DNA of 64,000 nt, from the NCBI GenBank assembly GCA_041650915.1, contig JBAZKE010000001.1, forward strand, positions 547,097-611,096, in the 5' to 3' direction. A program made the position numbers and the translations under genes. Under the pieces are notes generated by a model. That model was not told the DNA's origin. It saw only the letters and a program-made list of their open reading frames with translations, and ran no database searches. This stretch comes from Patescibacteria group bacterium. Lineage in GTDB: Bacteria > Patescibacteriota > Patescibacteriia > UBA10025 > JAHIVO01. Positions 12,489 to 32,853 of this stretch are shown piece by piece (the stretch's first letter is position 1; every line of letters begins with the position of its first letter).

Positions 12489-13411
12489 TATAAGTCCTTT
12501 CTTGATTTTTTAACTCTCAATAGCTGTACCACAATCGCAAGCAGCAGACTCAGCGGATATACTAACAGCAGTAGCAAGTATTCTTGAACTGAATGATGTT
12601 TAAAAAAATAATAGAGCATGCTTCGATTAAAAATCAGTTGTTTGGCAATTACGGTTTTTTTTGAAAAGCTCTTGCCTTTGTGGTGGATGACCGCTGTTGA
12701 TGCCGTATAGTAGGTTTTCCAGCCTTTTTTTATCGCACGTTTGCAAAAGTCAACTTCTTCATACCATATATAGAAGTGCTGATCGAGCAAGCCTACATCG
12801 TTAAGTGTTTTTCTGCGGATCATGAAGAAAGCGCCCATTACCTGATCGACATATCCCGATATATTATAATCCCAGTCATTATGGTAGTACCAGTGGATTG
12901 GTTTAAGGCGGGGAAAAAAATTGTGGAGCTTGAGCAGCATGATCATGTGTGACATAAATGTGGGAAACCGTCTGACTGAAGGTTGTAAACTTCCATCCGG
13001 ATTCACGAGCTTGCATCCGGCTATGCCGATGTCAGGCATGCGTTCCATTACCCGGAATGCCTTTTCGATGGAATTTTCGCGCAGTTCGGTATCGGGATTC
13101 ATGAGAAGAACATACGTACCTTTGGATTGTTTAATGGCCTGGTTGCAGGCTTGCGCAAATCCAATATTTTTTTGATTTTGAAGCAGAATCACTGTCGGAA
13201 AGTACTTCTTGACGGCTTCGGCAGAACCGTCGTCAGAAGCATTATCAACTACAAAAACCTCATACGTGAGGTTCTGTGTGTAATCAAGTATTGCCTGAAG
13301 GCAACGAGAGAGCTGGTCTTTTACCTTCCATGAAACAACGACGATAGATACATCCATATGGATGGATTCTACCCGATTTTCTGGTAGCATGCAATACGAT
13401 CCTCTACTCAA
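12488..13411 (-). CDS. Glycosyltransferase, family 2.
   Basis: VSIVVVSWKV...VFVVDNASDDGS. Start M19 at 13357 is possible. Confidence 0.7.
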   Translation of the reverse strand: MSRGSYCMLPENRVESIHMDVSIVVVSWKVKDQLSRCLQAILDYTQNLTYEVFVVDNASDDGSAEAVKKYFPTVILLQNQKNIGFAQACNQAIKQSKGTYVLLMNPDTELRENSIEKAFRVMERMPDIGIAGCKLVNPDGSLQPSVRRFPTFMSHMIMLLKLHNFFPRLKPIHWYYHNDWDYNISGYVDQVMGAFFMIRRKTLNDVGLLDQHFYIWYEEVDFCKRAIKKGWKTYYTASTAVIHHKGKSFSKKTVIAKQLIFNRSMLYYFFKHHSVQEYLLLLLVYPLSLLLAIVVQLLRVKKSRKDL

Positions 13412-14052
13412 CTGAAGAGCTTCCTAAAGCCGAGTTTGAGGATTTTAGCGACGCTGAATTTAGATATTCCTGTTCCAGTAAGTGGCGCTTCAAAAAGACG
13501 CCCTGGATACCAAATGCCGTGCATGCCTCGGTCAAGCATACGTTTCCAAAGATCCCAATCTTGAAAACGGCTTATCTCTTCATCAAAACCCAGGAAAGCT
13601 TCACGGCGTATCATGGACATCGTGCTAATGTAGTTTTCTTTTCGGAGTCGTTCCGGATCGAAAGGAAATAAATCAAAGGTATGCGGTCCAAATTTAAAGC
13701 TCGAATAGCAATAAGAGGCATCCGGATTGGATTCGAGTGTTTCCACCATACGTTCAACCATATCCGTATGCAAGTGGACATCCGAATCACAAAATAAAAT
13801 GTAAATGCCTTTTGAAATTTTAAACCCAGCATTTCGTGCTGCTGGCGCACCTTTATTTTCTTGGTTGAGGATCGTCAGTTTTTTACTATGCCGCTCTAGA
13901 ATTGTATGAGTCGCATCAGTAGACCCATCATTGACTGCGATAATTTCAATATTGTTGTACGTTTGATAAAAAATATCGTTTAGCGTCGACTCGAGAGTAC
14001 GGTGGGCGTTGTAGCATGGTACGATGACACTGACGAGAGGCCAATTGCTCAT
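13408..14052 (-). CDS. Glycosyltransferase, family 2 (short).
   Basis: VSVIVPCYNAHRTLESTL...IIAVNDGSTD...FCDSD. Confidence 0.7.
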   Translation of the reverse strand: MSNWPLVSVIVPCYNAHRTLESTLNDIFYQTYNNIEIIAVNDGSTDATHTILERHSKKLTILNQENKGAPAARNAGFKISKGIYILFCDSDVHLHTDMVERMVETLESNPDASYCYSSFKFGPHTFDLFPFDPERLRKENYISTMSMIRREAFLGFDEEISRFQDWDLWKRMLDRGMHGIWYPGRLFEAPLTGTGISKFSVAKILKLGFRKLFS

Positions 14053-20956: not shown

Positions 20957-22783
20957 TTAAGAAAGAATAGCTTTTATCCGGCGAATTCCGCTTGAAGACG
21001 ATTTTTCGGATTGAATGTGAAAATTACCGAGTTCTGACGTATTCTTCACATGTGGACCTCCGCACAATTCTTTAGAAAAATCACCTATAGAATAAACAGT
21101 AACTTTCTCAGGGTATTTTTCCTTAAAGAAAGAAAGTGCCCCGGATTTTACTGCATCGTCATAAGGCACTTCTTCGGAAGTTACCATGTAATTTTTTTTG
21201 ATGATCTCATTAACGAGGCGTTCTATTTTATTTTTTTCGTCTTCAGTCAATTTCGAATGGTGCTCAAAGTCAAAACGAAGCCGTTCGGGATTGATATCCG
21301 ATCCTTGCTGGCGAACATGAGGGCCAAGTACCGTACGGAGAGCCTGATGCAGTAGATGTGTGGCTGTGTGGTACCGTGTCATCAACGTTCTATCACTATC
21401 GGATAATTCTTTACTGTTTAGACCATGGCCGCCAAATTTATTTTCCGCCCCTGCACGTGAAAGTTTTTGGTGCTTCATAATTTCTCGGTGAAATCCTTCA
21501 CTATCGAATGTAAACCCTTCCCGCTTCAGCCGTTCTTCAGAAATTCCATACGTAGAATATAGGATAAAAGCTTCTTCCGCAGTTAATTTTCGCGTTGATG
21601 GCCCAGTAGAAACATCATGCTTAGTTTGAGTCTTGAGATGAATGATTTTATCAGCAATTTCGTGCACATTGAGGTTGAGTATTTTTTGATATCCAGACAA
21701 TTCTTTATTCATTTTTTCCGCTAAAGAATTTCGCTCTCGTTTGATCATCGGGTACTGCTTCTCATAAATTGACGCAACAGTATCGACAATTAAGGTTAGA
21801 TTAAAACGGGGATGCAAGTACTGATCGAGTGCACGCCGAAAAACTCTTCGTAGTATATATCCCTGCTCTTTATTACTGAAATTAATTCCATCAGATAATA
21901 AAAAAACCGATGCTTTAAAGTGATCGGCAGCAATACGGCAGCGGATAGCATCCTCAATCAAATTTGTAGAACCAAAATTGGGATCGTCTAAAATTAATTT
22001 TATGAGCGGTGAAAAAAGATCAGTTTCAAAAATGCTTTTTTTCCCCTGAAGAATCAGCGCAAGCCGTTCTAGTCCCATGCCAGTATCAATATTTTTACCA
22101 GGCAGTTCTTTAATTTTACCTCTGGCATCCATATGGAATTCCATGAAAACTAAATTCCATAATTCCATAAATCTGCCACACTCGCAATTTGGAAGGCACT
22201 GTTTTCCTCGTAAACAAGGTTTTCCGGTAAAATCATAGTGGAGTTCTGAACACGGGCCACATGGGCCTGATTTACCGGGAGGGCCCCACCAATTGTCATC
22301 CTTGCCAAAACCAATAATACGCTCAGTGGGCAAATATTTTTGCCAAAATTTAAAGGCCTCAGTATCTTTTGCAATTTCACTGCTTCCGCTATAATATGTT
22401 GCCCATAACTGATGTGGATTAATTTTTATAATTTTAGTCAGAAAAGTCCAAGAAAGATAAATGGCTTCTTCTTTGAAGTAATTTCCGATAGAAAAATTCC
22501 CAAGCATTTCAAAAAAAGTATTGTGGTACGGATCTCCTACTTCTTCAATATCCGAAGTTCTAAAAGACCGTTGTATGGAAACAAGCTTGGTGTTGCCAAA
22601 TTGTTTTTGAGCATCCTTAATTCCCATCAGATATGGCTTAAATTGCTGCATCCCTGCTGTTGTTAAAAGCACTGATGGATCATCTTGAGGCCACAGTGAA
22701 GAAGAATCAACTAAGGTATGCGAAAACTTCTTATTTTTTATAAAAAAACTTATAAATTTCTGCCGTATTTTATTGGAATTCAT
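20957..22783 (-). CDS. alaS: Alanyl-tRNA synthetase, short form (608 aa) lacking the C-Ala domain.
   Basis: The N-terminus has the WPQDDPSVLLTTAGMQQFKP class II core. The editing domain is present (HTATHLL...CGGPHV). The protein ends about 25 aa after it. Confidence 0.8.
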   Translation of the reverse strand: MNSNKIRQKFISFFIKNKKFSHTLVDSSSLWPQDDPSVLLTTAGMQQFKPYLMGIKDAQKQFGNTKLVSIQRSFRTSDIEEVGDPYHNTFFEMLGNFSIGNYFKEEAIYLSWTFLTKIIKINPHQLWATYYSGSSEIAKDTEAFKFWQKYLPTERIIGFGKDDNWWGPPGKSGPCGPCSELHYDFTGKPCLRGKQCLPNCECGRFMELWNLVFMEFHMDARGKIKELPGKNIDTGMGLERLALILQGKKSIFETDLFSPLIKLILDDPNFGSTNLIEDAIRCRIAADHFKASVFLLSDGINFSNKEQGYILRRVFRRALDQYLHPRFNLTLIVDTVASIYEKQYPMIKRERNSLAEKMNKELSGYQKILNLNVHEIADKIIHLKTQTKHDVSTGPSTRKLTAEEAFILYSTYGISEERLKREGFTFDSEGFHREIMKHQKLSRAGAENKFGGHGLNSKELSDSDRTLMTRYHTATHLLHQALRTVLGPHVRQQGSDINPERLRFDFEHHSKLTEDEKNKIERLVNEIIKKNYMVTSEEVPYDDAVKSGALSFFKEKYPEKVTVYSIGDFSKELCGGPHVKNTSELGNFHIQSEKSSSSGIRRIKAILS

Positions 22784-22858: not shown

Positions 22859-23932
22859 TTATGTTATAACTCCCCCACCCAGAAGAACATTTCTCAAATA
22901 AAAAACTGCGAACTGTCCCGGAGTAATTGCACGTTGACTATGCTTAAAATTTACACATAAAAAATTACCTATTTTGTGTACAATGCACGCTTGAGCAGGC
23001 TGGCGATAGCGGATTTTTACGGAACACTTTAACGGAAATATCGGTTCGTTTCCAGCAATCCAATTAGCATGGCTTACTTGGGTAGTTTTCGAGTATAAAC
23101 TTTTATGCCGTAAGCCGTGAGCGACTATCAATTCGTTTTTTCGATGATTTTTTTGCACAATATAATATGGGATCCCCCCGCCAATTCCAATGCCATGACG
23201 TTGGCCGCACGTATATTGCATCAATCCCTGATGTACGCCAATAATTTTTCCGGAAGTGGAAATAATTTTTCCCGGTTTAGATTTAATGTGCTCATTAATA
23301 AATTGTTTAAACTTAATGTTCCCAATAAAACAAATTCCCTGACTATCTTTTTTATTGTGCACATGAAGTCCGGCGCGTCGAGCAATACTTCTGATGTATT
23401 CTTTTTTATACATGCCAACAGGAAACAATGAATAACGCAATTGCTGCTGATTTAACAAAGCCAGAAAATATGACTGATCCTTGTTTAAGTCTTTTGCCTT
23501 TTTTAGGATATTTCGTTCGTCTTTTCCATGTAATTCAGTTATTTTTTGAACATAGTGTCCCGTCGCAATATAATTTGCACCGAGTTTGCGCATTTTATCG
23601 AGAAATACTCCAAATTTAATTTCACGATTGCAGAGCATATCAGGATTTGGGGTAATCCCGTTCTTATATCCATTAAGTAGGTAGGATACAATTTTTTTTC
23701 TATATTCATCCTCGAATATTTCAACCCGTGAAGGTATGCGTATTGTTTTGCAGATGATATGAAAATCTTTTAAATCCTTTTTCCAAGGGCATATACCCGA
23801 GAATGGATCGCTCCAATTCTTCATATACACACCAATTACTTTATATCCTTGCCTTTTCAACAGCAGAGCGGCAACAGAAGAATCCACGCCTCCGGACATT
23901 GCTACAAACACGTTTTTATTAATTTTTGGCAT
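22859..23932 (-). CDS. mnmA: tRNA-specific 2-thiouridylase.
   Basis: The PP-loop VFVAMSGGVDSSVAA, catalytic cysteines and the overall length match MnmA. Confidence 0.85.
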   Translation of the reverse strand: MPKINKNVFVAMSGGVDSSVAALLLKRQGYKVIGVYMKNWSDPFSGICPWKKDLKDFHIICKTIRIPSRVEIFEDEYRKKIVSYLLNGYKNGITPNPDMLCNREIKFGVFLDKMRKLGANYIATGHYVQKITELHGKDERNILKKAKDLNKDQSYFLALLNQQQLRYSLFPVGMYKKEYIRSIARRAGLHVHNKKDSQGICFIGNIKFKQFINEHIKSKPGKIISTSGKIIGVHQGLMQYTCGQRHGIGIGGGIPYYIVQKNHRKNELIVAHGLRHKSLYSKTTQVSHANWIAGNEPIFPLKCSVKIRYRQPAQACIVHKIGNFLCVNFKHSQRAITPGQFAVFYLRNVLLGGGVIT

Positions 23933-23988: not shown

Positions 23989-25293
23989 TTATAAATTATC
24001 TATAACTTCTTTAAGAAATTTCATTCTTGGAGAAACAAATTCATCCTGGGTAATTCTAGAAGCCGCATACATTGCATTTTGTGTTTTATGTTTTTGCCGG
24101 TGCTGGTATTTTCTTGGATAGTTATTTTCGATGCTTCCATTAGGAAGTATAAATACGCTGTATTTTTTTAGCATTTCAATTAAGCTCACTTCCGGTTCTG
24201 TAAATCTCATCTGAATTTTTTTCTGAATAATATTAAGGCCGGTATCATAAAGAGCATCGCGATCAAGTAAAACACAGTATGGCAAATCAAAAAGATCAAG
24301 AACATCCGTATATACGTCAATATTACTCTTACCGTAAACTTGGATTACCTTAATATCTTTTGTACCAGTATAAAATTTATTAATTAATTCCCGCATTAAA
24401 ATGTGATCAGACGGTCCTTCCACGAGCAGGACTTTATCCGCAAAAAACATTTCAGTATTATCGGCATTAAGCTCCTGTCTCAGTCTCTCGTAATTTATCC
24501 TTTTTCCGGTGAGTCTTGGAGAGTGAACTTTAGTAGTGTCACCTTCTTTTGTTACGCGAAAAATTCGGTGTAAATTTTCTGGACGAACGAAATTTGTCGA
24601 GTGGGTCGTTAAAAAAATTTGATTATCCAGGTTTCTTTCCTCCAAAATACTTATAAGTTTCTTAATAAGTGCTGGATGGAGGTGCACTTCAGGTTCTTCG
24701 AGTAATAAAACGGAGTATACTGGGTGGAAGAGGTACAAGAGTATTTTAAAAACCTGCCGAAATCCCGCACCGAGGCGCTCGTAGGGGCGCGTGGCGCCTT
24801 CATGCTCAATCGTGCTTGAAGTGAACAGTTTTCTATCGATCATAATTTGGGGAATGTACTGCTGCAATGTACGATGAAACAGCTCAAATTGATCGGGATA
24901 TTGTACTACTAAACTCTCAAAATCATGCTGCACTTTTTGAATTGAAAGATGATCAGTGGCGCATATTCTTACCATACGGCTAGATAGAATTTCCTTGCCT
25001 TTGTCAGGTGAAATTTCTTTGTCATCAAGCAAAAATTTTGTAAGATCCGCGAGTTGTACCACGTCGAGTATGCTTTTTTTTCGATCGAGCGTCAGACTAA
25101 AACTAGCATGAATATCACACTCTGGATCATGAAGCCGGATGCTGTTTCCGTTGTAAAGCCTGTAGATTGAATCTAAAATGTTTGTTTTGCCTGCATTATT
25201 TGCCCCAATAAAAATATGCAGAATACCCAGGTCATGCAGAACCAGTTTTTTTATGCTCTTATACCTGTTGATGGTGATTTTTTCAAGACGCAT
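23989..25293 (-). CDS. Compact OLD-family nuclease: ABC-type ATPase fused to a TOPRIM domain.
   Basis: Walker A is FIGANNAGKTNILDS. Walker B is VLLLEEPEVHLHP, with an H-loop at TTHS. The C-terminal TOPRIM has KVLLVEGPSDHIL (catalytic Glu) and a DxD in VLLDRDALYD. Confidence 0.7.
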   Translation of the reverse strand: MRLEKITINRYKSIKKLVLHDLGILHIFIGANNAGKTNILDSIYRLYNGNSIRLHDPECDIHASFSLTLDRKKSILDVVQLADLTKFLLDDKEISPDKGKEILSSRMVRICATDHLSIQKVQHDFESLVVQYPDQFELFHRTLQQYIPQIMIDRKLFTSSTIEHEGATRPYERLGAGFRQVFKILLYLFHPVYSVLLLEEPEVHLHPALIKKLISILEERNLDNQIFLTTHSTNFVRPENLHRIFRVTKEGDTTKVHSPRLTGKRINYERLRQELNADNTEMFFADKVLLVEGPSDHILMRELINKFYTGTKDIKVIQVYGKSNIDVYTDVLDLFDLPYCVLLDRDALYDTGLNIIQKKIQMRFTEPEVSLIEMLKKYSVFILPNGSIENNYPRKYQHRQKHKTQNAMYAASRITQDEFVSPRMKFLKEVIDNL

Positions 25294-25304: not shown

Positions 25305-25757
25305 TTACGCATACAGTTTATAAAAAAAATCTTCCAATGCGCTACGTTGTGCTTGGTTTGGACTGATTTTAGTTCTCTTTTTTTTAATTCTTTTTATCGC
25401 ATCTTGAGGCGTAAGACCGTAGTGAAGAATATAGTATGCTGCAACTAAAGTTGGCGCGCGTCAGCGTCCTTCGTTACAATGAACATAGCAGCGCATTTTT
25501 TGTGCAATGAGGTCTTCAATAAAATGTGATCCGATCATGAGCTGCACAGGAGACGGAGCAGTAAAATCAACTGTCGGAAGCCACAAAAATGATTCAACGC
25601 CTGATGGTGAATCTTCTTTTTCCTGCTGAAGGTCAATATCAGCTTTAATCCCCTTTTTTAAAAGCAACTCAAAATGTTTTTTACAGCAAATGCTGGTGCC
25701 GATATACAAGTACGGTTCGATGCGCGTATAGTTCAAATGGCGTTCGTTGGTTGTCAT
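25305..25757 (-). pseudogene. Dual-specificity (Cys-based, CX5R) protein phosphatase gene interrupted by one in-frame TGA in the P-loop.
   Basis: The ORF 25461-25757 ends ...YVHCNEGR then TGA. Reading through in the same frame continues RAPTLVAAYYILHYGLTPQDAIKRIKKKRTKISPNQAQRSALEDFFYKLYA then TAA at 25305. The readthrough reconstitutes a canonical 150-aa DSP (HCxxGx[G]R + AYLM-like helix). The TGA occupies the conserved Gly position, so it is one substitution from GGA. Confidence 0.6.
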
Positions 25758-25850: not shown

Positions 25851-27644
25851 CTAATCTAGCTGGATTTTTTGTCCTGGTTGGATTGGTTTACCTGGTTGTG
25901 CATGTGTTTCTGGAATGGATTTTCGGGCTTTATGCTGAAAAGGTTTATTCGTCCGAAGCATCGTCGGTGAAGACTTCATTGTATGATCAGTTATCTTACC
26001 CCTGCTCTTAAACGGTTTGGGTTGCATTGAAAACGCTTCGCTTAGTGAAATTTCTTTTTCCGGGCCTTGGACACTAACAGTTTCAAGATCACGAATAGGT
26101 ATATATTCCTTTTTTTTCTTTTCCGGTGGAAGTTTAGAAATTTTACTTATTTCAGGAGCAGAAAATGAGCGAATTGGAGGCGGATTTTGGCCATTCTTTT
26201 TTTGTGAAGCGTGGATTTTTTCAACAAATTGGTTATCCGCTTCTGCCATTGCCTTATGCATTTCGTGAACTCCGCTCCAGCGCATGATTTTATCTTCAAC
26301 AAGCTCTCGTGATTTACTATACCGTTCGCGTGAAACACTTAAAATTTTATTCTTGTTATTAGTTTTGCCTGTAAGCGGAGGCAGTGTTTTTGCGGAAAAA
26401 GGTTCTGAAGCTACCCCGTCTATCATCAGCTTCATGTAAACATTATACTTCGTTAAATTAAGAAGATCCTCCTCCATAAAAATCGGATAAAATTCTTTCG
26501 CAAGAAATTCAGCATCGGCGGCTCCGACGCGAAAACAGACAATAGTACCGATATTACCGAATACCGCGGCACGGACAGTCTCATCAAGCTGCTCGACGTA
26601 TTGATGGGCGATTATTAAATTAAGCCTGTATTTTCGCGCTTCCGATAAAATGCTCGCGAAGCTTTCAGTGGCAAAATTTTGGAATTCATCTACATACAGG
26701 TAGAAATCCTCTCGCTCATTTTCTGGTATATCGACTCTGCTCATCGCTGCGAGTTGGAGCCTGGTAATCATCATGGCACCGAGCAGAGATGAACTGTCTT
26801 CTCCGATTCTACCTTTCGAAAAATTAAGCAAAAGAATCTTTTTGTTATCCATTATTTCACGCAAATCAATGGTGCTTTTTGGCTGACCGACGATATTACG
26901 GATAACAGAACTCGATAAGAATTGCCCAACCTTATTCTGGATTGGGGCAATTGCCTCATTTCGAAATCGGTCATTATATCCGGCATATTCATCAACCCAA
27001 AAACTTTTTACAATCGGATCCGTGACTTTATCGATGACCTTCTTTCTATACTTTTTATCGACGAGAATGCGGGAAATACCGAGCATTGTCGAGCCTGGAT
27101 ACTCGAGCAGTGCAAGTATGCAATTATTGAGGATATATTCCATTCGGGCGCTCCATACCCCTTCCCATATTTTTGTAAAGACGCCCATGAGCCCAGATGC
27201 AACAAGGTGGCGCTGGTCGGGATCGACATTTTCCAGAACATTAAATCCGATGGGATACTCCAGGTCTGCCGGATTGAAATAGACCACATCATTAACCCGG
27301 TATGATGGTATGTAGTCGATAACCTTTTCAACGAGATCGCCATGCGGATCAACGAGCGCCAAACCCCGGCCTGCGCGAATATCCGAAATGACCATGTTTT
27401 CAATCACGGTTGTTTTTCCCATGCCTGTCTTGCCAATCAGATACATATGCCGACGCCTATCATCAACTCTAATGCCGAATTTTCGTGCTAAATTTCGAAA
27501 ATTCGTTTCGGCGAAGGGTGTTATTTCTCTTTCGAGGTCGGCTGTCATGGTTGTATTAAGCTGTCGGTAAATTTGGCGGCGGTACTCCTTTTTGTTCTGC
27601 AGGTGGCATGGCAATCCGCCCAAGCCTCTCCGGTGCTTGCTCAA
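25851..27644 (-). CDS. TrwB/TraD/VirD4-family (type IV coupling protein-like) P-loop ATPase: soluble, with a long basic disordered C-terminal tail.
   Basis: HMYLIGKTGMGKTTVIENMVISDIRAGRGLALVDPHGDL parallels TrwB Walker A plus the VIVDPNGD box. Walker B is FYLYVDEFQNF. There is no N-terminal TM. The start could be M33 at 27548. Confidence 0.55.
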   Translation of the reverse strand: MSKHRRGLGGLPCHLQNKKEYRRQIYRQLNTTMTADLEREITPFAETNFRNLARKFGIRVDDRRRHMYLIGKTGMGKTTVIENMVISDIRAGRGLALVDPHGDLVEKVIDYIPSYRVNDVVYFNPADLEYPIGFNVLENVDPDQRHLVASGLMGVFTKIWEGVWSARMEYILNNCILALLEYPGSTMLGISRILVDKKYRKKVIDKVTDPIVKSFWVDEYAGYNDRFRNEAIAPIQNKVGQFLSSSVIRNIVGQPKSTIDLREIMDNKKILLLNFSKGRIGEDSSSLLGAMMITRLQLAAMSRVDIPENEREDFYLYVDEFQNFATESFASILSEARKYRLNLIIAHQYVEQLDETVRAAVFGNIGTIVCFRVGAADAEFLAKEFYPIFMEEDLLNLTKYNVYMKLMIDGVASEPFSAKTLPPLTGKTNNKNKILSVSRERYSKSRELVEDKIMRWSGVHEMHKAMAEADNQFVEKIHASQKKNGQNPPPIRSFSAPEISKISKLPPEKKKKEYIPIRDLETVSVQGPEKEISLSEAFSMQPKPFKSRGKITDHTMKSSPTMLRTNKPFQHKARKSIPETHAQPGKPIQPGQKIQLD

Positions 27645-28965
27645 GTGGCAGGTCTATCGGTGCTTGTGCTTTCTTCGAATCAACTTTTTGCACGGACGGT
27701 ACTTTAACGTCGATAATCGGAAAGTGCCATATCGTCGCGAGTTCTTCGATATTGAGAACATAATTTTTCCGTCCCCTCCATAAACTCCGATAGCGGTAAG
27801 ACCAGAGTAGCCGCCGTTTTCTAGCTAATAACCTTGATTTTGCAAATAAAAATTTTGCCCTTGAAAATGTTTTCATATCTGGTCTGAATCCATTTGTATT
27901 CTGCGCGGCAAACTGATGAACAGTTCCGATAACGCCATCGAGTCCTTTTGAAAGCTGGGCGTTCTTTTTTTTTGCTCCGTAAATCATCCGCAGTTTTGAT
28001 TCATATCCAATTTTTGAAATTTTCATTCCTATCGCCTCGACAATATCCCGCTCTGCCGGTGATAAGTGCTGCATTTGGCTTGGCCAGTCCTGTATATTAC
28101 GCTGGCGTTGTGGCCCTTCCATTTCAGTAGGAGGTATTATTGAAGCGGTGAATGATTCTGACAATCCTTTCCCAATTTCTCTCGGAAAATAAAGCCAATC
28201 GGCGACCGATTTTGCGCCATCTTTTTTACCAATAAGTTTATTGATAAGCGATATACCTTTTTGCTTCCAATCTTCTGTGACCGGAGAAATGACTAGCTGA
28301 TACCAAAGATGCTCACCCGGACCCATTCTGCTCAGTATCTCCATGAGAGAAGCCATCGGATCTAAAAACTTTTGTGATAGGCTGTGTTCAAAATTCGGGT
28401 ACGTCTTAATCGGATAAAGATAATTATGGGCAAGCTTGAATTCCGTTCCCCAGACGTCGTATTCGGGATGGGGCAACTCAAGCGGTTTCGGAAGCATATC
28501 GATGTAATCTTCGACTTCCGTGATTTCTGCTTCAGGGTATTGGGCATAAATCGCGGCTTCAACTAGATCTCTGAATTTTACCGGGGTTCGTATTAGAAAT
28601 TGAATATATCCTTCAATGCTGACGATTTCCAGGCTGACCCCGAGCTGAGTTTTCCCTTCGACAAATCTTTCATACAAATCGTACGTTCGAATAAATCCAA
28701 AAATATGCGAAAATATATGTTCGACAGCTTTCGGGCTCTGCTCGTTGCCCCGGGGGATATCAATAGCAAGCAGGACAAAAGGTATTTTTGACTGATACTT
28801 ATTCTGTATATAAAGTACCCAACCTTCCCAACCGCCCCATAGGGAAACGATAATAACTATAATCCAGCCCCCGTGCAAAAATAAAAAAAACATAGCACCA
28901 AAGGGGCTGCCAACATCGGGAAATAAAGTAAGTGCTTGATCTGGTCCTACGACAAATGGATTCAT
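27556..28965 (-). CDS. Hypothetical membrane-anchored protein (N-terminal TM helices plus a roughly 400-aa soluble domain). It is the partner of the coupling-protein-like ATPase.
   Basis: The N-terminus FGAMFFLFLHGGWIIVIIVSLWGGWEGWVLY is hydrophobic. There are no recognisable catalytic motifs, and the C-terminus is basic. It lies 15 bp downstream of the regulator gene and abuts the ATPase gene. Confidence 0.4.
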   Translation of the reverse strand: MNPFVVGPDQALTLFPDVGSPFGAMFFLFLHGGWIIVIIVSLWGGWEGWVLYIQNKYQSKIPFVLLAIDIPRGNEQSPKAVEHIFSHIFGFIRTYDLYERFVEGKTQLGVSLEIVSIEGYIQFLIRTPVKFRDLVEAAIYAQYPEAEITEVEDYIDMLPKPLELPHPEYDVWGTEFKLAHNYLYPIKTYPNFEHSLSQKFLDPMASLMEILSRMGPGEHLWYQLVISPVTEDWKQKGISLINKLIGKKDGAKSVADWLYFPREIGKGLSESFTASIIPPTEMEGPQRQRNIQDWPSQMQHLSPAERDIVEAIGMKISKIGYESKLRMIYGAKKKNAQLSKGLDGVIGTVHQFAAQNTNGFRPDMKTFSRAKFLFAKSRLLARKRRLLWSYRYRSLWRGRKNYVLNIEELATIWHFPIIDVKVPSVQKVDSKKAQAPIDLPLEQAPERLGRIAMPPAEQKGVPPPNLPTA

Positions 28966-28980
28966 GTTGATCGTAGTTTG

Positions 28981-30102
28981 CTAGGATGGGACAGCAAGAC
29001 TGTACGTACCATCCTCATTTTTTTTGAATTTTGTTTTATCCGTAAGAGCAAGATGAATCGTATTTTTTTTAACGATTCTTTGTTCGAGCACTTTCTCAAC
29101 AAGCTGCGATCGAGTTAACGATTCGCTAGATCTATTGAGAATGTCAATCAGTACATTGGAAACAACGCCAGGTTTATAACCCCACTCTTTCAGTGCATAG
29201 ATTCCTCGTCCGACGAGAACATATCTGCTGTTGAGAATAAGTTCATTGTGCACCGTGGGCGGATAGGCTTTACGGGTATCAAATTTGACTTCGTTTATTT
29301 TTTGAGCAATCTCTGTAAAGTGCATTGGTTTCCCATGCCGCTTTAAAACCAGATAAATTTTATCATTCATTCTTTTTGGAACAATGCTGCCCCATTCCTT
29401 CAACCCAAATTCATCAAATGGATTTCTTGATATACTATTGCTCATATTCAAGTATGACGTAACAGCTTCCTCGGTAAGCAACTGCGGATTATGTTTAAAT
29501 AAATCTGTTTCCTTAAATTGCGAAAGAATCGAACTTATTGTTGCCGGCTTGCCATTTTTTGCGATAGTATCGAAGAGCGTCTTAATAGAATCTCTTATTA
29601 AATGTATCGGGGCATGAGAAAGCTGCCAGGATTGCTTAAAAACTTCATCGGGTCTTATAGTTTTAAATTTCTTTTTTAAAAGTTCTGAAATAACAAATAA
29701 AATATTTTGCCGGTTCATTTGGCTGTCGCCTACGACCTGTAAAAGTTCAGCGAGCAGATCGTTTTCTTCCATGGCCGCACCGTGTTGTTCGAGAACCGAA
29801 TAAACAGTATTTTCGATCGAAGCGATAAGTTCATTGAAGTTTTTAAGCTGGCTAATTTTTTGTATAGCGGTTTTTTCAATTTGACGAATTCTTTCCCTGG
29901 TAACTTTATAGGTCGCACCGATTTCTTCGAGAGTCTCTTTTTCTTTCCCGAGTAATCCGAATCTGCGACGAAGAACATCTTCTTCGCGTGTAGTAAGGGC
30001 CTTTAAGAGCTGAGAGACGGTATCGCTTGGATTGAACTGCTCGATTTGATTTGTTTTTTTACTGGAGATAACCTTATCCAGTATTGAATTTCCCTCTTCC
30101 AT
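28981..30102 (-). CDS. Putative transcription factor: N-terminal sigma-70 region 4 (4.1-4.2 HTH) and a C-terminal HARE-HTH-like winged helix.
   Basis: Residues about 35-90, DTVSQLLKALTTREEDVLRRRFGLLGKEKETLEEIGATYKVTRERIRQIEKTAIQKI, closely resemble RpoD region 4. The C-terminal KIYLVLKRHGKPMHFTEIAQKI...NSRYVLVGRGIYALKEWG resembles the HARE-HTH of the RNAP delta subunit and restriction enzymes. Confidence 0.5.
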   Translation of the reverse strand: MEEGNSILDKVISSKKTNQIEQFNPSDTVSQLLKALTTREEDVLRRRFGLLGKEKETLEEIGATYKVTRERIRQIEKTAIQKISQLKNFNELIASIENTVYSVLEQHGAAMEENDLLAELLQVVGDSQMNRQNILFVISELLKKKFKTIRPDEVFKQSWQLSHAPIHLIRDSIKTLFDTIAKNGKPATISSILSQFKETDLFKHNPQLLTEEAVTSYLNMSNSISRNPFDEFGLKEWGSIVPKRMNDKIYLVLKRHGKPMHFTEIAQKINEVKFDTRKAYPPTVHNELILNSRYVLVGRGIYALKEWGYKPGVVSNVLIDILNRSSESLTRSQLVEKVLEQRIVKKNTIHLALTDKTKFKKNEDGTYSLAVPS

Positions 30103-30266: not shown

Positions 30267-31172
30267 TTAAATTGTTTTTTTTCGGTTTATAAAATTATGC
30301 CACACAATAAGAAATGGGCTTGCTACAAATATAGAAGAGTACGTTCCGACAATAATACCTACAATGAGGGCTAATGTGAAATTCGCTATAGATTGACCGC
30401 CAAATAAGTAGAGAGCAAGTAAAACAAGCAGAGTTGTTAATGATGTGTTAATTGATCGGATAAGTGTTTGATTAACGCTTTCATTGACTACTTCTTCAAA
30501 AGTTCTTTGGTAGCTAATTTTTAGACGTTCACGTATGCGATCGTAAACAACGATTGTATCATGAACGGAAAATCCTAATATAGTGAGAATTGCGGTAATA
30601 AAAAGCATATCGATTTCCGTGTTGAAAAATTTTCCCATGATTGCAAAAAAACCAATAACGATGGTGATATCATGAAGAAGTGCGAGGGTCGCGCCAAATC
30701 CGTAAACCCAGGATTTCACTGCTCCACTTGCTACTTTTCGAAACGCGAATGAGATATACAGTATGATAAAAATGAGTACTAATACAATTGCAATGATAGC
30801 CCGATTACGGAGCCCTCGTCCGATAGTCGGACCGATTGATTCAAAGCTCTGTTCTGTTACGGATCCGTATTCCTGGTTCAGGTTTTCCAAAATAATTTCT
30901 CGTGCAGAATTATCGATTTCCCTGAGACGCAGCGTCATATCTGTTTCACCGATGGGTTGAACGCGAACAGCTCCATATTGAAGCTTATCGACAGCTTCCT
31001 CGACCGATTGAGCTGCAGGCCGGTCTTGATTGAATTTAACCTGCATGAGAGTACCGCCAGTAAAATCAATGCCAAGTTTCAACCCTCCAGACAAAATCGC
31101 AACTATACTTGTAGCAATCATGATACCGGAGATGGTAAACCAAATTTTTCTATTTTGAATGATTTTAAACAT
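30267..31172 (-). CDS. secF: Protein translocase subunit SecF.
   Basis: GIDFTGGTLMQVKF opening and six TM helices, with the SecDF C-terminal domain. Confidence 0.85.
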   Translation of the reverse strand: MFKIIQNRKIWFTISGIMIATSIVAILSGGLKLGIDFTGGTLMQVKFNQDRPAAQSVEEAVDKLQYGAVRVQPIGETDMTLRLREIDNSAREIILENLNQEYGSVTEQSFESIGPTIGRGLRNRAIIAIVLVLIFIILYISFAFRKVASGAVKSWVYGFGATLALLHDITIVIGFFAIMGKFFNTEIDMLFITAILTILGFSVHDTIVVYDRIRERLKISYQRTFEEVVNESVNQTLIRSINTSLTTLLVLLALYLFGGQSIANFTLALIVGIIVGTYSSIFVASPFLIVWHNFINRKKTI

Positions 31173-32853
31173 TTGTACTATTCAGCTTTGATTTTAGTGC
31201 AGGATTTGACCAGCTAAACCAGTGTGGATGTTTTTCGAGCCATTGTGATACTGAAAGTCGCAAAAAAGTTCTGGTAATTGTAATTGCTGAAAACATACTC
31301 ACGACGACACCAATGCCAAGTGTAATTGCAAATCCTTTCATGATACTTGTACCGAACCACGCGAGAATAATGCAGGTGATAATACTTGAAATATTTGAGT
31401 CTCGTATGGATGGCCAGGCGCGATTGAAACCTTCTTCTACTGCTACTTTAAGGGGCTTCCCCGTACGTAGCTCTTCACGGGAACGCTCAAAAATCAATAC
31501 ATTAGCGTCTACTGCCATTCCAATTGATAGGATAAATCCCGCAATACCCGCGAGCGTAAGAGTTATCGGAATCAGCTTAAAAAGGGCAAGAATCAAAAGT
31601 GCGTAAACGATGAGCGCCAATACCGATAATAATCCAGGCAGGCGATAGTATATAATCATGAACAGTGCGACGAGTATAAGCCCTACCAACCCCGCGAAAA
31701 AACTTTTTTGGATTGACTGCTCTCCGAGCGTAGCTCCAATATTTTGTTGTGATACGAGCGTAATCGGTACTGGCAGTGCTCCAGCATTGAGCCGCTGTGC
31801 GAGTAGCTTAGCTTCTTCAAGAGAAAAACTACCGGAAATGACTGCATTTCCATCACGAATAGGTTCATTGACTCGAGGCAGTGAAATTGGAGAGCCATCA
31901 AGGTATATGCCAACAATTTTATTGACATTGCGTTCCGTGATTTGTGAAAATAATTCCTTGCCTTCCGTATCGAATTCGAGTGATACCTGTGGTTCGTTTG
32001 TATTCGGATCAAATGCAACGGCAGACCGGCTAAGATTTTTTCCCGAGAGTTCGGTATTAGCAAAATCTGTATACCCTTCGGTTGATTGCTTGGAAAAAAG
32101 TATATGGCTCGCTTGCGCCTGGTCACCATCAATTGCTGTTTTTTTTATGATGTGGTAGCCAAACTCTGTTTCAACAATCTGCGGATAGACTTCACCAATT
32201 ATAGCTTGGTCAAAAACAGTATTTGCAAATTCTGGCACCATCATATCGCGTGTGAAAAAACCGAGATCTCCGCCTCGTTGTTCGCCAGTATCAGCATCTT
32301 TGTTTCCTGGATCTTGGCTATATTCATTAGCGAGTGCACCAAAATCCGCACCGGGAGCTGTTGCGAGTGCGAGTACACTCTCAGCTTGCTTTTTTGATTC
32401 TTCATTAAGGGTGATTATCGCAGTTTTTTCTTCTTCTGTTGGCTCAACAGTCACTTCTTCTTTAAATTCGAGCAGCGGGGTCTCTCCTATCATTTGAATA
32501 GCTTCAGAAATATTGGTGATGCCTGCAAGTTCAACAATGATGCGCCATTGGCTTCCCGCTTGATTTGTCTGAACAAAAGGTTCCGATACGCCGAAAGCAT
32601 TTACCCGATTTTCTATGACATCACGCACGCCCTCAAGCGCGGCCGCCTTGTCGCTTTCTTCAATTTGTGAGGTGTCCGCATCATATACGAGGTTGGTACC
32701 ACCGAGTAAGTCAAGCCCGAGGTGCACTTTTACCTCACGAAAAAAAGTGCCAATCTTGATATCGGGTCCACTCGGATAGTCAATAAATCCAGCTACAACT
32801 GTTAATACAACGATACCTGCAAATGTAAGCCAAACTTTCTTACGCAAAGTCAT
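31165..32853 (-). CDS. secD: Protein translocase subunit SecD with an embedded parvulin-type PPIase-like domain in the periplasmic P1 region.
   Basis: The SecD core is present (LGLDLLGGTNLVY; C-terminal six-TM bundle). Residues about 135-260, ...ALATAPGADFGALANEYSQDPGNKDADTGEQRGGDLGFFTRDMMVPEFANTVFDQAIIGEVYPQIVETEFGYHIIKK..., match the PrsA/SurA parvulin signature. Confidence 0.8.
   Translation of the reverse strand: MTLRKKVWLTFAGIVVLTVVAGFIDYPSGPDIKIGTFFREVKVHLGLDLLGGTNLVYDADTSQIEESDKAAALEGVRDVIENRVNAFGVSEPFVQTNQAGSQWRIIVELAGITNISEAIQMIGETPLLEFKEEVTVEPTEEEKTAIITLNEESKKQAESVLALATAPGADFGALANEYSQDPGNKDADTGEQRGGDLGFFTRDMMVPEFANTVFDQAIIGEVYPQIVETEFGYHIIKKTAIDGDQAQASHILFSKQSTEGYTDFANTELSGKNLSRSAVAFDPNTNEPQVSLEFDTEGKELFSQITERNVNKIVGIYLDGSPISLPRVNEPIRDGNAVISGSFSLEEAKLLAQRLNAGALPVPITLVSQQNIGATLGEQSIQKSFFAGLVGLILVALFMIIYYRLPGLLSVLALIVYALLILALFKLIPITLTLAGIAGFILSIGMAVDANVLIFERSREELRTGKPLKVAVEEGFNRAWPSIRDSNISSIITCIILAWFGTSIMKGFAITLGIGVVVSMFSAITITRTFLRLSVSQWLEKHPHWFSWSNPALKSKLNSTNV

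What the first reader, a model, noticed from the sequence alone, without database searches (positions are those of the whole stretch)
23989..25293. Minimal 434-aa OLD-family nuclease (ABC ATPase + TOPRIM) with no helicase partner
**What the sequence shows**
Walker A (GANNAGKT), Walker B (LLLEEPEVHLHP), the TOPRIM Glu (LLVEGPSD) and the DxD (LLDRDALYD) are all intact, so the protein is probably active.

**How it compares with known OLD proteins**
OLD proteins such as P2 Old, Gabija GajA and class 2 OLD with UvrD are typically 520-600 aa. They often pair with a helicase. This one is markedly shorter and its only tight neighbour is a phosphatase gene 11 nt upstream. This could be a new, reduced class of OLD system.
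Basis: partly seen in the sequence, partly recalled or inferred. Interest (0 to 1): 0.7.

Follow-up and report, generated by a model that had tools for sequence, protein, structure and literature searches.

The report
Compact stand-alone OLD nuclease in CPR bacteria
This gene encodes an intact but unusually short member of the OLD family of ATP-driven nucleases; it belongs to a small, already catalogued but unstudied branch found only in ultra-small bacteria and archaea, and it sits among housekeeping genes, not in a phage-defence island.

Summary

The protein is short for one main reason. The helical "dimerization" insert in the ATPase is cut from four helices to a two-helix hairpin (Walker A to Walker B is 163 aa, against 242 in TsOLD). 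It also lacks the class 2 C-terminal additions.

It is not a one-off. It belongs to a discrete family of about 16 clusters at 50% identity, 417-484 aa long. That family includes the Patescibacteria and DPANN sequences published as uncharacterised clade "U2" (Yang et al. 2025).

No helicase, reverse transcriptase or other partner is conserved. The upstream phosphatase is lineage-specific, absent in one close relative, and interrupted here by an in-frame TGA in its active site. Lacking a helicase is simply the Class 1 condition.

The gene is syntenic next to mnmA/alaS in 6 of 6 close relatives and diverges at housekeeping rates. It is patchy across CPR bacteria and absent from the viral, phage and plasmid collections searched.

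Verdict: a real, probably active, compact stand-alone OLD nuclease. It is a new structural variant of a known kind. Whether its role is defence or a Cran1-like housekeeping function is unresolved.

The parts
23989..25293 (-). Gene for the 434-aa compact OLD-family nuclease (ABC ATPase residues ~1-275, TOPRIM ~285-434); NCBI protein MFA5134683.1
25183..25206 (-). Walker A / P-loop GANNAGKT (G30-T37; catalytic K36)
   Evidence: G30, N32, G35 and K36 are invariant in 65 of 65 family members. K36 corresponds to TsOLD K34 and P2 K37.
24856..24942 (-). Reduced insert in the ATPase domain: a two-helix hairpin (residues 118-131 and 133-146), followed by a lower-confidence loop (~147-161). It occupies the place of the four-helix dimerization domain of TsOLD.
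   Evidence: Secondary structure and pLDDT of the AF2 model. Spacing statistics. TsOLD description. The correspondence rests on position in the chain and on spacing, not on a residue-level superposition.
24760..24777 (-). ABC signature-like motif RLGAGF (R173-F178)
   Evidence: G175 and G177 are invariant; F178 is conserved in 61 of 65. It aligns with LGLGIQ of TsOLD.
24673..24708 (-). Walker B + D-loop LLLEEPEVHLHP (E199 Walker B position, E200 catalytic Glu, H206 D-loop His)
   Evidence: E200, E202 and H206 are invariant; position 199 is D/E/N. The offsets match P2 D299/H306.
24598..24609 (-). H-loop TTHS (H231)
   Evidence: H231 is conserved in 64 of 65. It corresponds to TsOLD H310 and P2 H332.
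24406..24429 (-). TOPRIM Glu motif LLVEGPSD (E292 metal A, D296 metal B)
   Evidence: E292, G293, S295 and D296 are invariant. They align with TsOLD E377 and D381.
24244..24270 (-). TOPRIM DxD motif LLDRDALYD (D344, D346; metal A)
   Evidence: Invariant in 65 of 65. Aligns with TsOLD D431 and D433.
24085..24138 (-). C-terminal active-site segment GSIENNYPRKYQ...K (S387-x-E389 metal B; R394/K395 and K403 are candidate catalytic basic residues)
   Evidence: E389, P393 and K403 are invariant; 394/395 are R/K in most members. The S-x-E pattern and a basic residue ~7 aa after it match TsOLD S478/E480/R487. Assignment of the basic residue is inferred.
25305..25757 (-). Context, not a functional part: dual-specificity phosphatase frame ending 11 nt upstream of OLD, interrupted by an in-frame TGA at 25461-25463 in the HCxxGxGR loop
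   Evidence: Sequence. Pfam Tc-R-P/DSPc. Alignment with four intact 152-163-aa orthologues.
22859..23932 (-). Context: mnmA (tRNA 2-thiouridylase), 56 nt downstream on the same strand; adjacent to the OLD gene in all six close relatives
   Evidence: Pfam. Synteny.

Best explanation
**What it is.** The gene encodes a catalytically intact, compact, stand-alone OLD-family enzyme. An N-terminal ABC-type ATPase is fused to a C-terminal TOPRIM two-metal nuclease. It belongs to the small CPR/DPANN branch of the family, published as uncharacterised clade U2.

**Shown.**
- The fold, all ATPase motifs and all six metal ligands are present and invariant across the family.
- The helical insert in the ATPase is reduced to a two-helix hairpin.
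- There is no conserved partner gene.
- In this lineage the gene is inherited next to mnmA/alaS. It diverges at the same rate as those housekeeping genes.

**Inferred mechanism** (by homology with TsOLD, P2 Old and GajA).
- Two ATPase heads engage head-to-head around ATP, using the conserved Walker A, RLGxGF signature, D-loop and H-loop.
- This nucleotide cycle gates the TOPRIM site. That site uses E292/D344/D346 (metal A) and D296/S387/E389 (metal B), plus a conserved basic residue, to nick or cleave a nucleic acid (DNA, or a structured RNA such as tRNA).
- With the constitutive dimerization domain largely gone, dimerization is probably transient and ATP-driven.

**Inferred role.** Most likely a single-gene, Class-1-style nucleic-acid surveillance or defence nuclease that has become a stable chromosomal resident of a small genome. 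A domesticated non-defence role is the main alternative.
For: **Identity**
- Pfam, PADLOC and PDB sequence hits.

**Activity plausible**
- K36, E200, E202, H206, E292, D296, D344, D346, E389 and K403 are invariant in 65 of 65 relatives at 37-61% identity. H231 is conserved in 64 of 65.
- They map onto the mutationally validated TsOLD and P2 residues.

**Compactness localised**
- Walker A to Walker B is 163 aa (family median 162), against 303 in other OLD representatives and 242 in TsOLD.
- TOPRIM Glu to C-terminus is 142 aa, against 208 in other representatives and about 148 in TsOLD.

**Discrete family**
- The family profile finds about 16 full-length 50%-identity clusters of 417-484 aa.
- A DPANN tier of 526-538 aa follows. 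Scores then drop to E~1e-50 for ordinary OLDs of 600-720 aa.

**Clade U2**
- 42% identity, E 1e-94, to OIP80295.1.
- Profile hits P0127, P0130, P0135 and P0266 are the published U2 sequences OGY85351.1, MBI2427004.1, MBU0666826.1 and OIP80295.1.

**Stand-alone**
- Neighbours differ between sub-lineages: phosphatase; DUF6938; metG; efflux pumps; glycogen genes. None is a helicase, RT or nuclease partner.

**Defence-like features**
- Characterised bacterial OLDs are described as acting in phage defence or phage-phage interference.
- Distribution across CPR bacteria is patchy. Only 3 of 80 loci anchored on the conserved VirD4-like gene carry it.
Against: - There is no experimental data for this clade. 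Substrate, oligomeric state and ATP dependence are all inferred.
- The context argues against a typical mobile defence gene. The 64-kb window holds only housekeeping genes.
- Synteny with mnmA/alaS holds in 6 of 6 close relatives. Mean pairwise identity (57%) is like mnmA (59%) and alaS (62%).
- The reading frame overlaps or abuts housekeeping genes in other lineages.
- No family member was found on IMG/VR viral contigs, GenBank phages or plasmids.
- A precedent exists for a vertically inherited, essential, non-defence OLD: Cran1.
- The reduced insert could change or abolish dimerization. Cran1 is monomeric.
Confidence: 0.55

Rival explanations
1. Domesticated housekeeping OLD. The compact U2 enzyme has a non-defence cellular job in ultra-small symbionts. 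Candidates are chromosome or replication-associated nicking (Cran1-like), or processing or turnover of a stable RNA such as tRNA. This would explain its stable position among translation genes.
For: - The OLD-mnmA-alaS arrangement is kept in 6 of 6 relatives at only 54-62% protein identity.
- The divergence rate equals that of housekeeping neighbours.
- Stop/start overlaps or tight junctions with metG (L088), DUF6938 (group B) and the phosphatase (L007, L008).
- No defence genes were seen in the window or at any of the about 30 loci examined.
- None was found on viral, phage or plasmid sequences.
- Cran1 precedent.
- P2 Old cleaves tRNA, and the OLD active site mirrors RNase M5.
Against: - The gene is absent from most CPR lineages that keep the same flanking block, so it is not a universal core function.
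- The position differs between sub-lineages.
- Class 1 OLDs in general are solitary and lie outside defence islands, so the context does not discriminate.
- The link to tRNA genes may only reflect the density of housekeeping genes in a ~0.7-Mb genome.
Confidence: 0.3
2. Two-gene phosphatase-OLD module. The upstream dual-specificity phosphatase regulates or partners the nuclease, as GajB or AriB do in other classes.
For: - The phosphatase gene lies directly upstream (overlapping, or up to 150 nt away) in five genomes of the closest sub-lineage: window, L001, L002, L007 and L008.
Against: - It is absent in close relative L087, where two unrelated small ORFs sit upstream.
- It is absent in all group B and C loci.
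- An HMM of the phosphatase finds it in only 1 of 80 further CPR loci.
- In this window it carries a premature TGA at the active-site Gly plus an A-to-E change in the P-loop, while the OLD gene is intact.
Confidence: 0.04
3. Accessory nuclease of the conserved CPR sigma-r4/HARE-HTH - DUF8128 - VirD4/TrwB-like ATPase apparatus. It would, for example, process DNA that this machinery translocates.
For: - Same strand and same apparent transcription unit in the window.
- An 11/12 sigma-70-like promoter lies upstream of the block, and no terminator-like site was found between the block and the OLD gene.
- The arrangement recurs in the closest relatives.
Against: - The three-gene block occurs in most of 80 CPR loci without any OLD nearby.
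- Most OLD family members (groups B and C) are not near such a block.
- Promoter and terminator scans found no more sites than in shuffled sequence.
Confidence: 0.05
4. Degenerate remnant: a decaying OLD gene that has lost its dimerization domain and no longer functions.
For: - About 90 aa shorter than TsOLD.
- The neighbouring phosphatase gene looks broken.
Against: - The same compact architecture is conserved in more than 100 relatives of 408-480 aa.
- All catalytic residues are invariant.
- The predicted fold is confident and compact.
- The frame is intact.
Confidence: 0.03

Closest known systems
Uncharacterised OLD clade U2 of Yang et al. 2025 (EMBO Rep, PMC12796447): 4 Patescibacteria + 6 DPANN sequences
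   Same: Same sequence family. 42% identity (E 1e-94) to OIP80295.1 and 40% to MFA5030183.1. The family profile retrieves the published U2 members at E 1e-97 to 1e-149, before the drop to ordinary OLDs. It shares the hallmark ELNADNxEMFFAD...LLVEGxSD motif and the CPR/DPANN host range.
   Different: At 434 aa it lies at the short end. U2 CPR members are 459-484 aa and the DPANN member identified is 526 aa. Walker A to Walker B is 163 aa against 187-213 and ~253. The paper lists the clade but, in the parts read, says nothing about its architecture, context or function.
Class 1 OLD, Thermus scotoductus OLD (PDB 6P74)
   Different: About 91 aa shorter. Nearly all of the difference lies in the insert that forms TsOLD's four-helix constitutive dimerization domain, which here is a two-helix hairpin. 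The signature-like motif is conserved (RLGxGF), whereas it is degenerate in Class 1. Only 17-19% identical.
P2 Old (archetype Class 1) and Vibrio cholerae Class 1 OLD
   Same: Stand-alone ATPase-TOPRIM nucleases. The catalytic residues shown by mutation to be essential in P2 Old (K37, D299, H306, H332, E398, D453, D455, E402, D541, E543) all have counterparts here.
   Different: P2 Old is prophage-borne. The V. cholerae enzyme is reported to mediate phage defence. Both act in phage conflict, by tRNA cleavage (P2) or DNA nicking (V. cholerae). This gene is chromosomal, syntenic with housekeeping genes, and was not found on viral or plasmid sequences.
Class 2 OLD / Gabija GajA
   Different: No adjacent GajB/UvrD-like helicase. 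About 140 aa shorter. The TOPRIM-to-C-terminus length argues against the class 2 helical additions.
Cran1 (Sulfolobales clade U11)
   Same: An OLD-family protein that is inherited vertically within a lineage and lies outside defence islands. It is a precedent for an essential, non-defence, possibly monomeric OLD.
   Different: Different clade and domain of life, and about 55 kDa. No direct sequence comparison was made here. Essentiality and cell-cycle regulation are unknown for the CPR protein.
Class 4 OLD / PARIS (AriA + AriB) and Class 3 retron OLDs
   Same: Related ABC ATPase and TOPRIM modules. AriA and retron Eco8 models hit weakly.
   Different: ATPase and TOPRIM are fused here, not split as in PARIS. 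There is no reverse transcriptase nearby, as retron OLDs would have.

Membership tests
OLD family (ATPase-TOPRIM nucleases) | N-terminal ABC-type ATPase with Walker A Lys, acidic Walker B, D-loop His and H-loop His | tested here: met
   K36, E199/E200, H206 and H231 are present. K36, E200 and H206 are invariant, H231 is conserved in 64 of 65, and position 199 is D/E/N. Pfam AAA_21/AAA_15. Mapped to TsOLD and P2 residues.
OLD family (ATPase-TOPRIM nucleases) | C-terminal TOPRIM domain with metal A (Glu + DxD) and metal B (Asp/Glu + S-x-E) ligands | tested here: met
   PF20469 at 5e-16. E292, D344, D346, D296 and E389 are invariant. S387 is S/D/T/A across the family. Aligned to TsOLD E377/D431/D433/D381/S478/E480.
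OLD family (ATPase-TOPRIM nucleases) | Full-length fold like solved OLD structures | tested here: met
OLD family (ATPase-TOPRIM nucleases) | ATP hydrolysis and metal-dependent nuclease activity | not testable with these tools
   Needs purified protein.
Class 1 OLD | Single gene without a conserved partner (context definition) | tested here: met
   No recurring partner across about 30 loci. Neighbours differ by lineage.
Class 1 OLD | Four-helix dimerization domain inserted in the ATPase (TsOLD architecture), length ~520-590 aa | tested here: not met
   Only two helices (118-146) occupy the insert. Walker A to Walker B is 163 aa against 242 (Ts) and 262 (P2). Total length is 434 aa.
Class 1 OLD | Placement in the Class 1 clade of the family tree | tested here: not met
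   No tree was built here. However, the nearest relatives are the sequences that Yang et al. 2025 place in the separate clade U2.
Class 2 OLD (Gabija GajA) | [quoted passage not shown] | tested here: not met
   No helicase domain in any ORF of 150 aa or more in the 64-kb window, nor next to the relatives.
Class 2 OLD (Gabija GajA) | Extra helical insert / C-terminal helical domain in the TOPRIM region | tested here: not met
   TOPRIM Glu to C-terminus is 142 aa, like TsOLD (~148). The longer OLD representatives have a median of 208.
Class 3 OLD (retron effector) | Adjacent reverse transcriptase and msr/msd ncRNA | tested here: not met
   No RT domain in the window or in relatives' loci. The retron Eco8 NCBIfam model scores 72 bits against a cut-off of 250. 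No ncRNA search was run.
Class 4 OLD (PARIS AriA/AriB) | ATPase and TOPRIM encoded as separate proteins | tested here: not met
   Both domains are in one 434-aa polypeptide.
Clade U2 (Yang et al. 2025) | Close sequence relationship to listed U2 members | tested here: met
   BLASTP 42% identity, E 1e-94, to OIP80295.1. E 1e-11 to 1e-12 to U3 and U4 examples. Published U2 sequences are among the top hits of the family profile.
Clade U2 (Yang et al. 2025) | Hosts are Patescibacteria (CPR) or DPANN archaea | tested here: met
   The source is a Patescibacteria MAG. All named close relatives are CPR. U2 composition.
Cran1-like (clade U11) non-defence OLD | Vertical inheritance and conservation within a lineage | tested here: inconclusive
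   Syntenic in 6 of 6 close relatives with housekeeping-like divergence. The sample is small and the gene is absent from most other CPR lineages. No species-tree reconciliation was done.
Cran1-like (clade U11) non-defence OLD | Essentiality, cell-cycle-dependent expression, chromatin association | not testable with these tools
   Experimental properties.

The most novel reading that the evidence does not exclude
The compact U2 OLDs would be a domesticated, vertically inherited nuclease peculiar to ultra-small episymbionts (CPR bacteria and DPANN archaea). They would do a non-defence job, such as replication or chromosome-associated nicking as in Cran1, or tRNA/rRNA processing given the recurrent adjacency to mnmA, alaS and metG. 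They would work without the constitutive dimerization domain, through ATP-driven transient head engagement. This would make them a structurally and functionally distinct OLD class.
Probability: 0.2. Interest if true: 0.7.

Novelty: new variant of a known kind. Interest (0 to 1): 0.4.

Why it matters
**Context.** OLD nucleases are one of the most widespread defence-associated enzyme families. How the ATPase controls the nuclease, and what solitary (Class 1-type) OLDs do, are still open questions.

**What this lineage offers.** It is the smallest natural ATPase-TOPRIM architecture seen in this work. Every catalytic residue is kept but most of the dimerization domain is gone.
- It is a natural minimal construct for testing whether constitutive dimerization is needed for ATP-gated cleavage.
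- It is an attractive target for structural work.

**Biological interest.** The family is confined to CPR and DPANN organisms, which have tiny genomes and little room for dispensable genes. The gene also sits stably among translation genes. Together these raise the testable possibility of a second non-defence OLD function after Cran1.

**If it is defence after all.** It would be one of the few defence genes stably retained in CPR genomes.

Tried and rejected
1. **Alternative genetic code (table 25, UGA = Gly).** This was suggested by the phosphatase TGA falling on an invariant Gly. Rejected: TGA ends 10 of 51 long ORFs. Several of these are classic ATGA stop/start overlaps, for example at 10023-10026, 13408-13411 and 14049-14052.
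2. **Phosphatase as functional partner.** Rejected on distribution and on the premature stop.
3. **DUF6938 as a general partner.** An HMM finds it only in the Komeilibacteria-like sub-lineage and not in the window.
4. **Link to the DUF8128/VirD4-like block.** That block is widespread in CPR bacteria without OLD.
5. **Congruence test.** Spearman correlation of pairwise identities between OLD and its neighbours in group B gave rho 0.18-0.37. This is uninformative because most pairs are equally distant.
6. **Mobile-element origin.** There were no close hits in IMG/VR (best 1e-20, partial), none in GenBank phages, and only distant partial hits in plasmids.
7. **Compositional anomaly.** GC of the gene region (0.37) matches its neighbours (0.36-0.39).
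8. **Promoter and terminator scans.** Site counts were no higher than in shuffled sequence. Only one strong promoter-like site was found, upstream of the sigma-like gene.
9. **Tool failures.**
   - The look-up of encoding contigs had no record for the exact protein.
   - The afdb50 structure library was unavailable.
10. **Not done.**
   - No homodimer prediction.
   - No tree of the whole OLD family.
Full report
**1. The observation**

The window carries a 434-codon ORF at 23989..25293 on the minus strand, starting with ATG and ending with TAA.
- GANNAGKT, residues 30-37
- LLLEEPEVHLHP, residues 196-207
- LLVEGPSD, residues 289-296
- LLDRDALYD, residues 342-350

Profile searches confirm what the motifs suggest:
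- Pfam: AAA_21 (4.6e-21), AAA_15 (1e-19) and OLD-like_TOPRIM PF20469 (5e-16).
- PADLOC: the best model is 'Old' (4.5e-36), followed by many GajA models.
- NCBIfam: only sub-threshold hits, for example retron Eco8 effector at 72 bits against a cut-off of 250.
- PDB by sequence: the best hit is the Class 1 OLD of Thermus scotoductus, 6p74 (1e-11), then GajA.

**2. Is it likely to be active?**

In an alignment of 65 relatives at 37-61% identity to the query, the invariant columns include the following:

| Element | Residues |
|---|---|
| Walker A | G30, N32, G35, K36 |
| Signature-like RLGxGF | G175, G177 |
| Walker B region | E200, E202 |
| D-loop | H206 |
| H-loop | H231 (64 of 65) |
| TOPRIM | E292, G293, S295, D296, D344, D346, E389 |
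| Further basic residue | K403 |

- The HMMER alignment to 6p74 and the residue lists in Schiltz et al. 2020 give the mapping.
- E292/D344/D346 correspond to the TsOLD metal A ligands E377/D431/D433.
- D296/S387/E389 correspond to the metal B ligands D381/S478/E480.
- K36 corresponds to Ts K34. E199 corresponds to the Walker B position (Ts E276, P2 D299).
- H206 and H231 fall at the same offsets from Walker B as the P2 D-loop H306 and H-loop H332.
- A conserved basic residue (R394/K395, or the invariant K403) is available for the role of Ts R487. This last assignment is inferred.
- Schiltz et al. found the ABC signature to be degenerate in Class 1 OLDs. Here the RLGxGF motif is well conserved, so the refutation condition about a missing signature motif is not met.

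Activity is plausible but untested.

**3. Why it is short**

Motif spacing was measured in the family and in the closest non-family OLD representatives.

| Stretch | This protein | Family median | Non-family OLD reps (median) | TsOLD | P2 Old |
|---|---|---|---|---|---|
| Walker A Lys to Walker B | 163 | 162 (range 142-187) | 303 | 242 | 262 |
| Walker B to TOPRIM Glu | 93 | 93 | 95 | ~101 | not computed |
| TOPRIM Glu to C-terminus | 142 | 142 | 208 | ~148 | not computed |

- The TsOLD and P2 values follow the published residue numbering.
- The roughly 90-aa deficit relative to TsOLD therefore lies almost wholly in the ATPase insert.
- In TsOLD that insert is a four-helix dimerization domain between beta8 and beta9.
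- In the model, the equivalent stretch is a two-helix hairpin (118-131 and 133-146) followed by the only lower-confidence loop of the protein.
- Relative to class 2 enzymes the protein also lacks the extra TOPRIM and C-terminal helices.
- The mapping of the hairpin onto the dimerization domain rests on chain position and spacing. I could not superpose coordinates.

**4. It belongs to a family, and that family is already in the literature**

The word-indexed search found 1172 hits. The best 120 are mostly 408-480 aa (three shorter fragments aside) and 37-60% identical. Every named one comes from Patescibacteria: Kerfeldbacteria, Komeilibacteria or Parcubacteria. The exact protein is NCBI MFA5134683.1, 'MAG: AAA family ATPase [Patescibacteria group bacterium]', on a 679,916-bp contig.

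A profile of the family was searched against 1.84 billion 50%-identity representatives. It returned three tiers:
- about 16 full-length clusters of 417-484 aa (E below 1e-88);
- a second tier of 526-538 aa (E 1e-67 to 1e-97);
- then an abrupt fall to E~1e-50 for ordinary OLDs of 600-720 aa.

The family is small and discrete within a superfamily of 86,111 representatives at E up to 1e-3.

Yang et al. 2025 (EMBO Rep, PMC12796447) published an OLD phylogeny with Classes 1-4 plus eleven uncharacterised clades, U1-U11. Their Dataset EV1 lists clade U2 as four Patescibacteria and six DPANN archaeal sequences.
- The window protein is 42% identical (E 1e-94) to U2 member OIP80295.1 and 40% to MFA5030183.1.
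- Against U3 and U4 examples it scores only E 1e-11 to 1e-12.
- Four of the profile hits are literally the published U2 sequences:
  - P0127 = OGY85351.1
  - P0130 = MBI2427004.1
  - P0135 = MBU0666826.1 (Nanoarchaeota, 526 aa)
  - P0266 = OIP80295.1

The protein therefore belongs to that clade, at its short end. In the parts of the paper I read, the clade is only mentioned as one of three with both bacterial and archaeal members.

**5. Genomic context**

All neighbours are on the same strand. In the direction of transcription the order is: secD, secF, a sigma-70 region 4 / HARE-HTH protein, DUF8128, a VirD4/TrwB-like ATPase, the phosphatase, OLD, mnmA, alaS, infA, and ribosomal protein and rpoA genes.

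Pfam scans of every ORF of 150 aa or more in the 64-kb window find only housekeeping functions. These include RseP, RRF, holB, MreB, a polysaccharide cluster, SecDF, SecA, MurB/C/D/G, FtsW, MraY and PilB. There is no helicase, restriction-modification system, reverse transcriptase or other defence gene. GC content shows no anomaly.

Relatives fall into three context groups.

*Group A* (window, L001, L002, L007, L008; OLD 54-62% identical)
- All keep the whole block from the sigma-like gene to alaS.
- Two further metagenome loci join this group. L094 has the full arrangement. L087 lacks the phosphatase but keeps OLD 5 nt upstream of mnmA.
- Mean pairwise identities:

| Protein | Mean pairwise identity |
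|---|---|
| OLD | 57% |
| mnmA | 59% |
| alaS | 62% |
| DUF8128 | 61% |
| phosphatase | 62% |

- The OLD gene therefore diverges like its housekeeping neighbours.

*Group B* (Komeilibacteria-like, 12 loci)
- The arrangement is DUF6938 - OLD - EamA - a glycoside-hydrolase-like gene.
- The DUF6938 stop often overlaps the OLD start.
- Four more loci keep OLD-EamA-hydrolase without an adjacent DUF6938.

*Group C*
- OLD lies next to efflux pumps, glycogen genes or membrane proteins.

In L088 the OLD start overlaps the stop of metG. No partner recurs across the groups.

A scan anchored on the very conserved VirD4-like ATPase returned 80 CPR loci. Most keep the sigma-like/DUF8128/VirD4-like block and many have mnmA-alaS downstream. 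Only three carry the OLD gene. The gene is therefore stable within lineages but patchy across CPR bacteria. No close family member occurs on IMG/VR viral contigs (best partial hit 1e-20), in GenBank phages, or on plasmids.

**6. The phosphatase**

- The frame 25305-25757 does end 11 nt before the OLD start.
- It contains an in-frame TGA at 25461-25463.
- In four intact orthologues (152-163 aa) that codon is the invariant Gly of HCNAGxGRAP. The window reads HCNEGR*RAP.
- UGA is a genuine stop elsewhere in the window, in ATGA overlaps. This is therefore a nonsense mutation, an assembly error or read-through, not genetic code 25.
- Identity on both sides of the stop (61-62%) equals that between intact orthologues. 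If the mutation is real, it is recent.
- Combined with its restricted distribution, this rules the phosphatase out as an obligatory partner.

**7. How it most likely works**

*Shown:* fold, motifs, conservation, solitary context, lineage-level synteny.

*Inferred from established OLD biochemistry (TsOLD, P2 Old, GajA):*
- The ABC heads bind ATP at a composite site formed by head-to-head engagement.
- The nucleotide state controls a two-metal TOPRIM active site that nicks or cleaves a nucleic acid.
- The constitutive dimerization domain is reduced while the signature-like motif is well conserved. I therefore expect transient, ATP-driven dimerization and not a permanent dimer. Cran1, which is monomeric, shows that OLDs can do without a stable dimer.
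- The substrate cannot be deduced. DNA nicking or exonuclease activity (TsOLD, V. cholerae OLD, Cran1) and tRNA cleavage (P2 Old, PARIS AriB) are both precedented.

**8. Role**

*For a Class-1-style defence or surveillance nuclease:*
- Characterised bacterial OLDs are described as serving phage defence or phage-phage interference.
- The distribution across CPR bacteria is patchy.
- The position differs between sub-lineages.

*For a domesticated housekeeping role:*
- Strict synteny and housekeeping-like divergence.
- Junctions with translation genes.
- Absence from mobile elements and defence islands.
- Restriction to two groups of genome-reduced symbionts.
- The Cran1 precedent.

Class 1 OLDs in general are solitary and lie outside defence islands, so context alone does not decide. 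My estimates are about 0.95 that this is a functional OLD-family ATPase-nuclease, about 0.55 for the full best explanation (with the defence-type role), and about 0.3 for a non-defence role.

**9. Comparison and novelty**

- It works like a Class 1 OLD and meets the family-defining features.
- It fails the Class 1 architectural feature (the four-helix dimerization domain).
- By transfer from the published tree, it also fails Class 1 phylogenetic placement.
- It fails the defining features of Classes 2, 3 and 4.
- It is a member of the published but uncharacterised clade U2.

I rate it a new variant of a known kind. It is a minimal OLD architecture in a catalogued, unstudied clade. Interest is moderate (0.4). 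It is useful as a minimal model of ATPase-TOPRIM coupling and as a candidate second non-defence OLD, but it is not surprising to a specialist who knows the 2025 phylogeny.

Noticed in passing
window 25305-25757 (-), stop codon at 25461-25463: The dual-specificity phosphatase gene upstream of OLD has an in-frame TGA. It falls exactly on the invariant Gly (GGA in orthologues' position) of the HCNAGxGRAP catalytic loop, and the same loop also carries an Ala-to-Glu change. Four orthologues are intact (152-163 aa). Identity on both sides of the stop is undiminished. This is a recent nonsense mutation, an assembly error or read-through. It is not code 25, since TGA is a real stop elsewhere.
   Followed up: partly
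window 25851-30102 (-); loci L087-L166: A three-gene block (sigma-70 region 4 + HARE-HTH protein, DUF8128 membrane protein, VirD4/TrwB-like ATPase) recurs in most of 80 CPR metagenome loci. The ATPase is 55-75% identical across very divergent lineages, which makes it one of the most conserved proteins seen here. Its function is unknown. An 11/12 sigma-70-like promoter with an extended -10 TG sits at 30172-30144, just after a terminator-like hairpin at 30252-30233.
   Followed up: partly
window 27548-27644 (-): The mechanical ORF for the VirD4-like ATPase starts at TTG 27644 and overlaps DUF8128 by 89 nt. Orthologues begin at the Met corresponding to ATG 27548 (MTADLER...), which gives 565 aa and a 7-nt intergenic gap.
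   Followed up: partly
window 31165-32853 (-); L001 510-2174; L002 347-2026: SecD carries an inserted PpiC-type peptidyl-prolyl isomerase (Rotamase_3) domain at about residues 150-239. It is conserved in the related genomes. This is an unusual translocon-chaperone fusion.
   Followed up: no
window 20957-22783 (-): Alanyl-tRNA synthetase is only 608 aa (catalytic + tRNA_SAD domains, no C-terminal DHHA1/C-Ala region). The related genomes have the same length (605-611 aa).
   Followed up: no
loci L003-L005, L011, L015, L017-L021, L023, L025: In the Komeilibacteria-like sub-lineage a ~445-aa DUF6938 protein lies directly upstream of the OLD gene. Its stop often overlaps or nearly abuts the OLD start. 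It is more conserved (mean 69.5% identity) than the OLD itself (52%). It is absent from the window and from the other sub-lineages.
   Followed up: partly
Yang et al. 2025 Dataset EV1 (PMC12796447, supplement 2, parts 11-12): Clade U2 of the published OLD phylogeny consists only of CPR bacteria (4) and DPANN archaea (6), two unrelated groups of ultra-small episymbionts. The ATPase insert shrinks stepwise. Walker A to Walker B is ~253 aa in the DPANN-type tier, 187-213 aa in the CPR U2 members, and 142-187 aa in the compact family.
   Followed up: partly
window 35027-37768 (-): A 913-aa UPF0182 family membrane protein (E 1.7e-278) is present. This is a large conserved protein of unknown function in a ~0.7-Mb genome.
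   Followed up: no
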